The notes beneath the pieces were generated by a model. It was not told the DNA's origin and ran no database searches. It worked only from the letters and a program-made list of their open reading frames with translations. The position numbers and the translations under genes are program-made. A DNA stretch of 64,000 bases, taken from the IMG/VR virus record IMGVR_UViG_3300037400_002261, positions 1 through 64,000 of that record, one strand, 5' to 3'. The stretch comes from a virus. Its lineage: Duplodnaviria; Caudoviricetes. Within the stretch, counting starts at the first letter, position 1; every line of letters starts with the position of its first letter. Shown piece by piece: positions 39,099-39,171 of this stretch.

Positions 39099-39171
39099 AG
39101 GGGTGTGGTGTAATGGTTCAGCACAGGTGGCTCTAACCCACTTGATCTGGGTTCGAATCCTAGCACCCCCG
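39099..39171 (+). tRNA. Amber suppressor tRNA, anticodon CTA (reads UAG; Gln-type)
   Basis: AGGGGTG/CACCCCC acceptor, G73; D-arm GTGT-AATGGTTCA-GCAC; anticodon arm GGTGG-CT CTA AC-CCACT (CTA at 39133-39135); T-arm CTGGG-TTCGAAT-CCTAG. Confidence 0.93.

What the first reader, a model, noticed from the sequence alone, without database searches (positions are those of the whole stretch)
39099..39171. Phage-encoded amber suppressor tRNA with GlnRS-type identity elements
It folds as a clean cloverleaf with anticodon CTA. It has G2-C71, G3-C70, G73, U35 and an unpaired A1-C72, matching known E. coli GlnRS determinants, and a TGGTGTAATGG..AGCAC D-arm like many Gln tRNAs. It lacks the U1-A72 pair used by bacterial GatCAB, which predicts direct charging by a GlnRS and so constrains host range. 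No CCA end is encoded.
Basis: partly seen in the sequence, partly recalled or inferred. Interest (0 to 1): 0.85.

Follow-up and report, generated by a model that had tools for sequence, protein, structure and literature searches.

The report
Phage amber suppressor tRNA reading TAG as glutamine
This is a genuine phage tRNA that reads the stop codon TAG as glutamine so that the phage's late genes, which hold about 300 in-frame TAGs, can be translated; such tRNAs are already known, though this one has a conserved unpaired first base pair.

Summary
A 73-nt tRNA with anticodon CTA lies at 39099-39171 (+). ARAGORN finds it and Rfam scores it at 57.5 bits. All stems pair except A1·C72, the discriminator is G73, and no CCA is encoded.

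It sits at the head of the late module of an SPbeta-like phage fragment (107 kb, about 54% complete). The late genes hold 298 in-frame TAGs in 33 of 42 ORFs; the early genes need none.

TAG means glutamine. Two TerL TAGs align with Gln that is invariant in 14 of 14 and 13 of 14 relatives. In close standard-code relatives 25 of 44 TAG-aligned columns are Gln.

Two related recoded phages carry orthologous tRNAs. Their stems show compensatory changes, but position 1:72 stays unpaired (U·C) and G73 is kept, so the mismatch looks selected.

The E. coli GlnRS acceptor-stem elements are present. However, the body is equally tRNA-Trp-like, and it also carries GluRS-type D-arm features. Direct charging by a host GlnRS is plausible, because suppressors with the same core occur in crAss-like phages and the nearest named host is a Clostridium-class bacterium. 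It is not shown, and the host is unknown.

This is a new member of a known kind (code-15 phage suppressor tRNAs). The scan has noted comparable suppressors in other genomes.

The parts
39099..39171 (+). tRNA(CUA), the amber suppressor. It is 73 nt, with an A1·C72 mismatch and G73, and no CCA is encoded.
   Evidence: ARAGORN; Rfam RF00005 at 57.5 bits; covariation with 6 homologues
39133..39135 (+). Anticodon CTA (C34 U35 A36)
   Evidence: Sequence; ARAGORN
39067..39097 (+). Terminator-like hairpin (39067-39089) and T-run that end 1-2 nt before the tRNA
   Evidence: Consensus scan, the only terminator-like site in 38300-39900. Function is not shown.
39180..39252 (+). tRNA-Thr(TGT), 8 nt after the suppressor; probably the same transcript
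   Evidence: ARAGORN; Rfam at 69.6 bits
39257..39331 (+). tRNA-Asn(GTT), third gene of the tRNA cluster
   Evidence: ARAGORN; Rfam at 61.1 bits
39420..40235 (+). First gene that needs the suppressor: a GIY-YIG homing endonuclease with an in-frame TAG at 39807-39809
   Evidence: ORF lists under code 11 and under TAG=Q; Pfam and PHROG
41624..43390 (+). Large terminase (YonF-like) with 7 in-frame TAGs. Codon 51 aligns with Gln in all 14 relatives and codon 103 in 13 of 14.
43410..45002 (+). Portal protein with 3 in-frame TAGs
39420..64000 (+). Recoded late module, running on to 107 kb beyond the window. It holds 298 TAG codons in 33 of 42 ORFs.
30405..33122 (+). YonO-like single-subunit RNA polymerase, encoded in standard code upstream of the tRNA
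   Evidence: phrog_8308 at 1.7e-91; synteny with SPbeta yonO

Best explanation
The gene encodes a functional amber-suppressor tRNA of an SPbeta-like phage that has reassigned TAG from stop to glutamine in its late genes.

The early and middle genes (1-39 kb) are readable by the host's standard code. These include a YonO-like RNA polymerase. The tRNA cluster (CUA, Thr, Asn) lies between them and the packaging and virion module. Once the tRNA is made, processed and given a CCA end by host enzymes, it pairs with UAG and inserts glutamine. That allows full-length terminase, portal, capsid and tail proteins to be made.

Shown here: the tRNA is real and conserved; the late genes require TAG read-through; TAG stands where relatives have Gln.

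Inferred: the tRNA is charged by a host enzyme, most probably directly by a glutaminyl-tRNA synthetase (my estimate is about 55-60% for this step). Three things point that way. U35 is present. The acceptor end has G73, G2-C71 and G3-C70. The 1:72 position is already open, which GlnRS needs, and this may offset the missing G36 contact.

Also inferred: read-through must be nearly complete, because one essential gene holds 164 TAGs. Host release factor 1 must therefore be outcompeted or neutralised by a means not seen in this fragment.
For: The tRNA is real and is the only CUA tRNA in the 107-kb record.

The code change is clear. Under TAG=Q the fragmented plus-strand ORFs after 39.4 kb join into full-length TerL, portal and other genes. 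There are 298 TAGs in 33 of 42 late ORFs, about 30% of Gln-type codons. Early ORFs need none, and only 3 of 70 end in TAG.

Evidence that the residue is Gln:
- In four close standard-code relatives, 25 of 44 TAG-aligned columns are Gln. True Gln codons are conserved at 0.54 and background Gln is 0.035. The log-likelihood for Gln is 61 units better than the next residue.
- In four cultured standard-code SPbeta-like phages, 18 of 98 columns are Gln, and Gln is best by about 15 units.
- TerL codon 51 aligns with Gln in all 14 relatives and codon 103 in 13 of 14.
- In a Blautia faecis prophage, 12 of 31 columns are Gln.

Evidence of conservation: the recoded relatives L058 and L105 carry orthologous tRNAs with compensatory changes in all four stems. 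They keep G2-G5:C68-C71, G73 and an unpaired 1:72.

Evidence for GlnRS: the identity set in PMC9976931. Suppressors with the same core (83-86% identity over positions 8-65) occur in the crAss-like phages cr53_1 and cr7_1. TAG=Gln has been shown by proteomics in two crAss-like phages (PMC9523058, abstract). Bacteroidetes mostly have GlnRS and no GatCAB (PMC3927822).
Against: There is no direct evidence of expression, charging or suppression.

The host is unknown. All cultured relatives infect Bacillota, a phylum in which only 10 of 28 surveyed genomes had GlnRS.

The body also carries U11-A24, U13·G22, A46 and a 4-nt variable loop. From my own knowledge these are GluRS determinants in E. coli tRNA-Glu. 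Glutamylation followed by amidation therefore cannot be excluded.

A 1:72 mismatch weakens EF-Tu binding in E. coli initiator tRNA (my own knowledge), which is odd for an elongator tRNA.

One capsid TAG (49178-50281, codon 234) aligns with Glu in four relatives.

The closest recoded relative, L242 (TerL 93%), has no CUA tRNA at the syntenic site. L001 (92%) has a different, long-arm CUA tRNA elsewhere. The suppressor gene is therefore exchangeable, and the unsequenced 46% of this genome could hold another one.
Confidence: 0.8

Rival explanations
1. The tRNA delivers glutamine, but by the indirect route. A non-discriminating GluRS of a GlnRS-less Bacillota host attaches Glu, and GatCAB amidates it to Gln.
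For: All cultured relatives infect Bacillota, most of which lack GlnRS (18 of 28 genomes in PMC3927822). The D arm and variable loop have U11-A24, U13·G22, A46 and no nucleotide 47. PMC9976931 lists the absence of nucleotide 47 and tertiary interactions as GluRS determinants, and says some GluRS enzymes charge only tRNAs with this architecture.
Against: Amidotransferases rely on U1-A72 (PMC9976931), and that pair is absent here and in the two orthologues (A·C, U·C, U·C). The main GluRS element for B. subtilis GluRS is a modified U34, but this tRNA has C34. The same tRNA core works in crAss-like phages, whose host phylum mostly lacks GatCAB.
Confidence: 0.15
2. The tRNA inserts another residue at TAG, or a mixture. 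Glu would result from GluRS charging without amidation; Trp would result from TrpRS charging, given the Trp-type acceptor helix.
For: The acceptor helix matches 5 of 6 bacterial tRNA-Trp acceptor determinants. Chromosomal Bacteroidota tRNA-Trp genes share an identical variable loop and T arm. One capsid TAG aligns with a conserved Glu. Another agent's note in this scan (e1-5757069, unchecked by me) reports a TAG=Glu phage.
Against: At TAG-aligned columns Trp appears 1 time in 98 and Glu 5 in 98 in cultured relatives, and each 0 in 44 in close relatives, against 18 and 25 for Gln. Two TAGs sit at invariant or near-invariant Gln positions of TerL. C35, the strongest Trp determinant, is replaced by U35. 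The E. coli tRNA-Trp amber suppressor is charged with Gln (PMC9976931).
Confidence: 0.04
3. The gene is a decaying or non-functional tRNA copy, the 1:72 mismatch being damage, and another suppressor in the unsequenced part of the genome does the decoding.
For: The record is only about 54% complete. Close relatives keep their CUA tRNAs at other sites or in another form.
Against: All other pairs are intact. Two related recoded phages keep the same unpaired 1:72 while their stems co-vary. Among 14 further phage CUA tRNAs picked by a pattern that fixes C68-C72 and G73, none has a G1 that would pair with C72. No other CUA tRNA is present in 107 kb.
Confidence: 0.03

Closest known systems
Suppressor tRNA(CUA) genes of TAG-to-Gln ('code 15') recoded phages: crAss-like, Lak, Agate/Topaz/Garnet clades and phAss-1 (bioRxiv 10.1101/2021.08.26.457843; PMC9523058; PMC7886860; PMC10607447)
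   Same: A phage-encoded CUA tRNA. Early genes use standard code, while late, structural and lysis genes are full of in-frame TAG. TAG aligns with Gln. No phage aaRS is found, so a host enzyme is assumed. The core (positions 8-65) is 83-86% identical to the CUA tRNAs of crAss-like cr53_1 and cr7_1.
   Different: The phage backbone is SPbeta-like, with a YonO-type polymerase and YonF/YonE/YonG packaging genes, and its relatives infect Bacillota. The acceptor end differs: A1·C72, G2-G5:C68-C71 and G73 here, against U1·U72 or U1-A72, G2-C71 or G2·U71, C3-G70 and A73 in the crAss examples.
E. coli su+7 (tRNA-Trp with anticodon CUA) and supE (tRNA-Gln with CUA), the classical amber suppressors charged by GlnRS
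   Same: A CUA anticodon with U35, plus G73, G2-C71, G3-C70 and a weak 1:72. The body is of Gln/Trp type. The E. coli tRNA-Trp amber suppressor is charged with Gln (PMC9976931).
   Different: Those are single-base mutants of cellular tRNAs with a paired 1:72 (A-U or U-A) and give partial suppression. This is a phage gene with a conserved 1:72 mismatch that serves about 300 sense TAG codons.
Bacterial tRNA-Gln as substrate of ND-GluRS and GatCAB (indirect pathway)
   Same: The Gln outcome; U35; a D arm and variable loop compatible with GluRS-type recognition.
   Different: It lacks the U1-A72 pair that amidotransferases read, and it has C34 instead of a modified U34.

Membership tests
tRNA (Rfam RF00005) | Cloverleaf with four helices and conserved D-loop and T-loop residues, scoring above the family's gathering score | tested here: met
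   57.5 bits against a gathering score of 29, matched over model positions 1-71. ARAGORN also calls it. G18 G19 and the GTTCGAAT T loop are in the sequence.
tRNA (Rfam RF00005) | Base pairs maintained by compensatory change among homologues | tested here: met
   10 of 21 pairs show changes on both sides, 93.9% of cells pair, and 0 of 500 shuffles reach this
Suppressor tRNA of a TAG-to-Gln recoded (code 15) phage | Anticodon CUA | tested here: met
   CTA at 39133-39135
Suppressor tRNA of a TAG-to-Gln recoded (code 15) phage | The phage's essential genes are interrupted by in-frame TAG and are restored by reading through it | tested here: met
   TerL, portal and others become full length under TAG=Q. 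There are 298 TAGs in 33 of 42 late ORFs.
Suppressor tRNA of a TAG-to-Gln recoded (code 15) phage | TAG positions correspond to Gln in standard-code homologues | tested here: met
   25 of 44, 18 of 98 and 12 of 31 columns are Gln. TerL TAG codons 51 and 103 align with Gln in 14 of 14 and 13 of 14 relatives. Gln is the best residue by likelihood.
Suppressor tRNA of a TAG-to-Gln recoded (code 15) phage | The tRNA is expressed, charged with Gln and suppresses UAG in vivo | not testable with these tools
Substrate of E. coli-type GlnRS (tRNA-Gln identity set, PMC9976931) | G73, G2-C71, G3-C70 and G10 | tested here: met
   All four are present in the sequence
Substrate of E. coli-type GlnRS (tRNA-Gln identity set, PMC9976931) | A weak U1-A72 pair that the enzyme opens | tested here: inconclusive
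   The position is A1·C72. It is already open, but it is not the U-A pair of the identity set.
Substrate of E. coli-type GlnRS (tRNA-Gln identity set, PMC9976931) | Anticodon-loop elements U/C34, U35, G36, A37 and U38 | tested here: not met
   C34, U35 and A37 are present. Position 36 is A, as it must be in any amber suppressor, and position 38 is C.
Bacterial tRNA-Trp (identity set, PMC9976931) | G73, A1-U72, G2-C71 to G5-C68, A9, and C34 C35 A36 | tested here: not met
   A1, G2-G5:C68-C71, G73, C34 and A36 are present. C72, G9 and U35 break the set, and Trp is rare at TAG-aligned columns.
Substrate of bacterial GatCAB (tRNA-Gln of the indirect pathway) | U1-A72 base pair | tested here: not met
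   A1·C72 here and U1·C72 in the two orthologues. The rule is taken from PMC9976931.
tRNA-Pyl (ARAGORN's label) | Atypical fold: a very short D loop without G18 G19, a 3-nt variable loop and a 6-bp anticodon stem (my own knowledge), together with pyl genes | tested here: not met
   The D loop is canonical with G18 G19, the T loop is canonical, the anticodon stem has 5 bp and the variable loop 4 nt. No pyl-like genes appeared among the ORFs scanned.
Initiator-type tRNA (1:72 mismatch) | Three consecutive G-C pairs (29-41, 30-40, 31-39) at the bottom of the anticodon stem (my own knowledge) | tested here: not met
   The stem is G27·U43, G28-C42, U29-A41, G30-C40, G31-C39

The most novel reading that the evidence does not exclude
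The unpaired 1:72 position with C72, together with G73 and the G2-G5:C68-C71 helix, may be a selected identity device of one class of phage amber suppressors. It would make the tRNA an efficient substrate of GlnRS alone, by pre-opening the acceptor end to offset the lost G36 contact. It would also keep the tRNA out of the GluRS/GatCAB route. That would tie TAG-recoded SPbeta-like phages to GlnRS-bearing Clostridia and set their host range.
Probability: 0.3. Interest if true: 0.6.

Novelty: new member of a known kind. Interest (0 to 1): 0.35.

Why it matters
The finding adds an SPbeta-like phage lineage of Bacillota to the phages known to switch TAG to glutamine for their late genes. Standard-code relatives lie at about 80% terminase identity, so the switch arose recently in this lineage.

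The one point that goes beyond the literature I read is the acceptor end. The first base pair is kept open in three related recoded phages while every other stem co-varies. If that open pair decides which host enzyme charges the tRNA, it would turn an open question into a simple bench test. The question, raised in the Borges et al. preprint, is how recoded phages of Firmicutes get their suppressors charged with Gln when many Firmicutes lack GlnRS. It could also give a sequence marker for host range.

Tried and rejected
**Host identification.** These attempts gave nothing useful:
- A scan of species genomes with TerL found no relative.
- A scan with the D-stem and anticodon-arm pattern gave 7 chance hits, none of them a tRNA.
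- Loci from the look-up of encoding contigs cannot be used as genome handles.
With the PhoH-like protein it returned only viral and mixed taxa.
- Cluster look-up named only Blautia faecis.
- A paper search for GlnRS in Lachnospiraceae found nothing.

**Near-identical phage DNA.** None was found in the GenBank phage collection.

**Theta or HDV-like ribozyme next to the tRNA (PMC10879173).** Nothing appeared in an E-value Rfam scan of 38800-39700. The tRNAs are only 8 and 4 nt apart.

**Phage-encoded GlnRS.** None was found in this record or in five related or similar records, all of them partial.

**Readings rejected on structure.** tRNA-Pyl and an initiator-like role were rejected (see the membership tests).

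**ARAGORN's 75-nt model.** It adds one base at each end. I did not adopt it because the Rfam alignment fits a standard 7-bp stem.

**Gln or Trp origin.** Similarity could not decide it. Top-5 identities were 55.2 for Gln against 54.6 for Trp.

Full report
**1. The observation.**
ARAGORN finds four tRNA genes in the window. One, at 39098-39172, has anticodon cta; its 'Pyl' label is only the program's default name for that anticodon. Rfam's tRNA model matches 39099-39171 over its whole length at 57.5 bits (E = 8.9e-10) and marks a single non-standard pair, 1:72. The sequence shows:
- acceptor stem A1·C72, G2-C71, G3-C70, G4-C69, G5-C68, U6-A67, G7-C66, with G73;
- D stem G10-C25, U11-A24, G12-C23, U13·G22, with G18 G19 in the loop;
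- anticodon loop CUCUAAC, with the anticodon at 39133-39135;
- a 4-nt variable loop and a canonical T arm;
- TTATTT after G73, so no CCA is encoded.

tRNA-Thr(TGT) follows after 8 nt and tRNA-Asn(GTT) after a further 4 nt.

**2. The setting.**
The window is the first 64 kb of a 107,285-bp IMG/VR virus record, judged about 54% complete, with 32.8% G+C.

The terminase (41624-43390) is 49% identical to YonF of Bacillus phage SPbeta. All 149 GenBank phage records that match it belong to, or resemble, phages of Bacillota: Bacillus, Lactococcus, Enterococcus, Clostridioides, Clostridium, Enterocloster, Staphylococcus and Thomasclavelia.

Gene order follows SPbeta, running YonO-like polymerase, YonJ, YonG, YonF and YonE.

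The closest named homologue is a terminase of a Blautia faecis prophage at 66% identity, lying on a 460-kb contig of an NCBI genome assembly.

**3. The code change.**
Under table 11 the plus-strand genes after 39.4 kb are fragmented. Read with TAG as a sense codon, they join into contiguous genes, including:
- terminase, 588 aa with 7 TAGs;
- portal, 530 aa with 3 TAGs;
- an 8,310-aa ORF at 63815-88747 with 164 TAGs, which earlier notes of this scan read as the tape measure protein.

In a non-overlapping ORF set, the late region has 298 TAG codons in 33 of 42 ORFs, about 30% of TAG+CAA+CAG. Early ORFs need no read-through, and only 3 of 70 end in TAG. The suppressor lies between the two regimes. 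The first gene after the tRNA cluster already has an in-frame TAG at 39807-39809.

**4. Which amino acid.**
I aligned the late proteins, with TAG written as X, to DNA of relatives by tblastn and read the codon opposite each X.
- Four close relatives (L002-L005, TerL 79-83% identical) have no in-frame stop in 658-1,612 aligned columns each, so they use standard code. Gln stands at 25 of 44 TAG-aligned columns. True Gln codons are conserved at 0.54, and background Gln is 0.035.
- Four cultured standard-code phages (SPbeta, C. difficile AR1086-1, Staphylococcus SPbeta-like 2, Thomasclavelia TR-TP1) have Gln at 18 of 98 columns, against 0.16 for true Gln codons.
- The Blautia prophage has Gln at 12 of 31 columns.

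A likelihood built from substitution frequencies in the same alignments ranks Gln first in all three main groups. The margin is 61 units in the close relatives, about 15 in the cultured phages and only 1 in the middle group. TerL codon 51 aligns with Gln in all 14 relatives and codon 103 in 13 of 14. Trp (1 of 98) and Glu (5 of 98; 0 of 44) do not fit. One capsid TAG aligns with a conserved Glu in four relatives, which is a single exception. The loci are not all independent; L003 and L005 give the same residues.

**5. Conservation of the tRNA.**
The exact anticodon arm occurs in 12 other IMG/VR contigs. Their D arm, anticodon arm and T arm are almost identical, but the acceptor stems are quite different. 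Most have U1·G72, C2-G71, U3-A70 and A73.

Two contigs are relatives of this phage. L058 has 50-75% identity in five late genes. L105 has 69% in YonG and 51% in TerL. Both are TAG-recoded. Their CUA tRNAs align with this one and show compensatory changes in all four stems. They keep G2-G5:C68-C71, G73, no encoded CCA, and an unpaired 1:72 (U·C).

Fourteen further CUA tRNAs were retrieved by a pattern that fixes C68-C72 and G73 but not position 1. None has the G1 that would pair with C72.

A broader sample was defined only by the anticodon loop and T loop. Of 79 distinct CUA tRNAs, 14 have a 1:72 mismatch, 7 have G·U and 32 have G-C. Phage amber suppressors are therefore heterogeneous, and this acceptor end marks one recurrent class. 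The mismatch looks selected, not like damage.

**6. Identity elements.**
I compared the tRNA with the identity sets tabulated by Giegé and Eriani (PMC9976931).
- *Gln set.* It has G73, G2-C71, G3-C70, G10, U35 and A37. It lacks G36, unavoidably, and U38.
- *Trp set.* It also has A1, G2-C71 to G5-C68, G73, C34 and A36. It lacks U72, A9 and C35.

By overall similarity the nearest sense tRNAs among about 980 phage tRNAs are Gln and Trp, almost equally. The D-arm motif occurs in phage tRNA-Gln (6 of 18), tRNA-Trp (3 of 13) and CUA tRNAs (22 of 101).

In 151 Bacteroidota genomes the best chromosomal matches are of two kinds:
- tRNA-Trp genes, with an identical variable loop and T arm;
- tRNA-Gln genes, which share the acceptor stem at positions 2-7/66-71 and G73.

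So 'Gln-type identity' holds as a description but is not specific. It still fits Gln insertion, because the review records that the E. coli tRNA-Trp amber suppressor is charged with Gln, pointing to U35 as central to GlnRS recognition.

**7. Who charges it.**
This step is inference only.

For direct charging by GlnRS:
- The identity elements above are present.
- The acceptor end is already open.
- U1-A72, which amidotransferases read, is absent.
- The tRNA has C34, whereas the modified U34 is the main element for B. subtilis GluRS.
- Suppressors with the same core occur in the crAss-like phages cr53_1 and cr7_1, where RefSeq annotates them as tRNA-Gln although the anticodon is CTA. Proteomics has shown TAG=Gln in two crAss-like phages (PMC9523058, abstract). 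Bacteroidetes mostly have GlnRS without GatCAB (PMC3927822).

Against, or left open:
- The host is unknown.
- Only 10 of 28 surveyed Firmicutes had GlnRS. Those the paper and its supplement name in this context are Clostridia.
- The D arm and variable loop carry GluRS-type features.
- Other suppressors of the same core have non-E. coli acceptor ends.

No GlnRS gene is found in this record or in five related or similar partial records. Borges et al. had already proposed that host GlnRS charges such suppressors.

**8. Regulation.**
This too is inference. A terminator-like hairpin and T-run (39067-39097) end just before the tRNA. No theta or HDV-like ribozyme was detected nearby.

The layout is standard-code YonO-like polymerase, then the tRNA cluster, then recoded late genes. 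It matches the published model in which code change delays late-gene translation.

With 164 TAGs in one gene, read-through per codon must be close to complete. Release factor 1 must therefore be outcompeted or neutralised, and nothing in the fragment explains how.

**9. Novelty and verdict.**
Phage CUA suppressors serving TAG-to-Gln recoding are well documented, and this scan has reported comparable cases in other genomes. Two things are new here:
- the phage lineage, which is SPbeta-like, has Clostridia-type relatives, and has standard-code kin at about 80% TerL identity;
- the conserved open 1:72 acceptor end.

I rate this a new member of a known kind, of moderate interest.

Noticed in passing
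L001:5509-5595 (IMG/VR contig whose TerL is 92% identical to the window's): This close recoded relative carries a different CUA tRNA between the portal and the next gene. It is 87 nt with a long variable arm and scores 39.2 bits against Rfam tRNA. Its acceptor end is the same as the window tRNA's (A1·C72, G2-G5:C68-C71, G73). Similar 89-nt long-arm CUA tRNAs with U1-A72, G73 and an encoded CCA occur in L050, L051 and L069. Which enzyme charges a long-arm tRNA with this acceptor end is unclear.
   Followed up: partly
L242:8850-8923 (ENA contig of 154 kb, TerL 93% identical, TAG-recoded): The closest recoded relative has a tRNA-Met at the syntenic site and no CUA tRNA within 21.7 kb around TerL. 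The suppressor gene therefore moves or is exchanged among very close relatives.
   Followed up: partly
L002-L005 (TerL 79-83% identical): These close relatives use standard code, with CAA or CAG where the window has TAG. Recoding arose recently within this lineage.
   Followed up: partly
G000 63815-88747 (starts at window 63815 and runs past the window's end): Under TAG=Q a single open frame of 8,310 codons with 164 in-frame TAGs appears. Earlier notes of this scan read it as a giant tape measure protein.
   Followed up: no
window 39420-40235 and 45573-46748: GIY-YIG/NUMOD homing-endonuclease genes flank the packaging genes. Both contain in-frame TAG, and the first lies directly after the tRNA cluster. 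They could help move the neighbouring tRNA cassette.
   Followed up: no
window 49178-50281, codon 234: The single TAG of this putative capsid gene aligns with Glu in four relatives (L006, L008, L011, L012). It is the one site where Gln is not the natural reading.
   Followed up: no
NC_055889.1 6664-6738 and NC_055895.1 9123-9194 (crAss-like phages cr53_1 and cr7_1): RefSeq annotates these as tRNA-Gln, but their anticodon is CTA. Their D arm, anticodon arm and T arm are 83-86% identical to the window tRNA, while the acceptor stems are unrelated. One suppressor core is thus shared by unrelated phage lineages with different host phyla.
   Followed up: partly
window 56660-57664: A tyrosine recombinase/integrase gene with 4 in-frame TAGs lies inside the recoded late module. 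A tyrosine recombinase sits at about the same place in Staphylococcus phage SPbeta-like 2.
   Followed up: no
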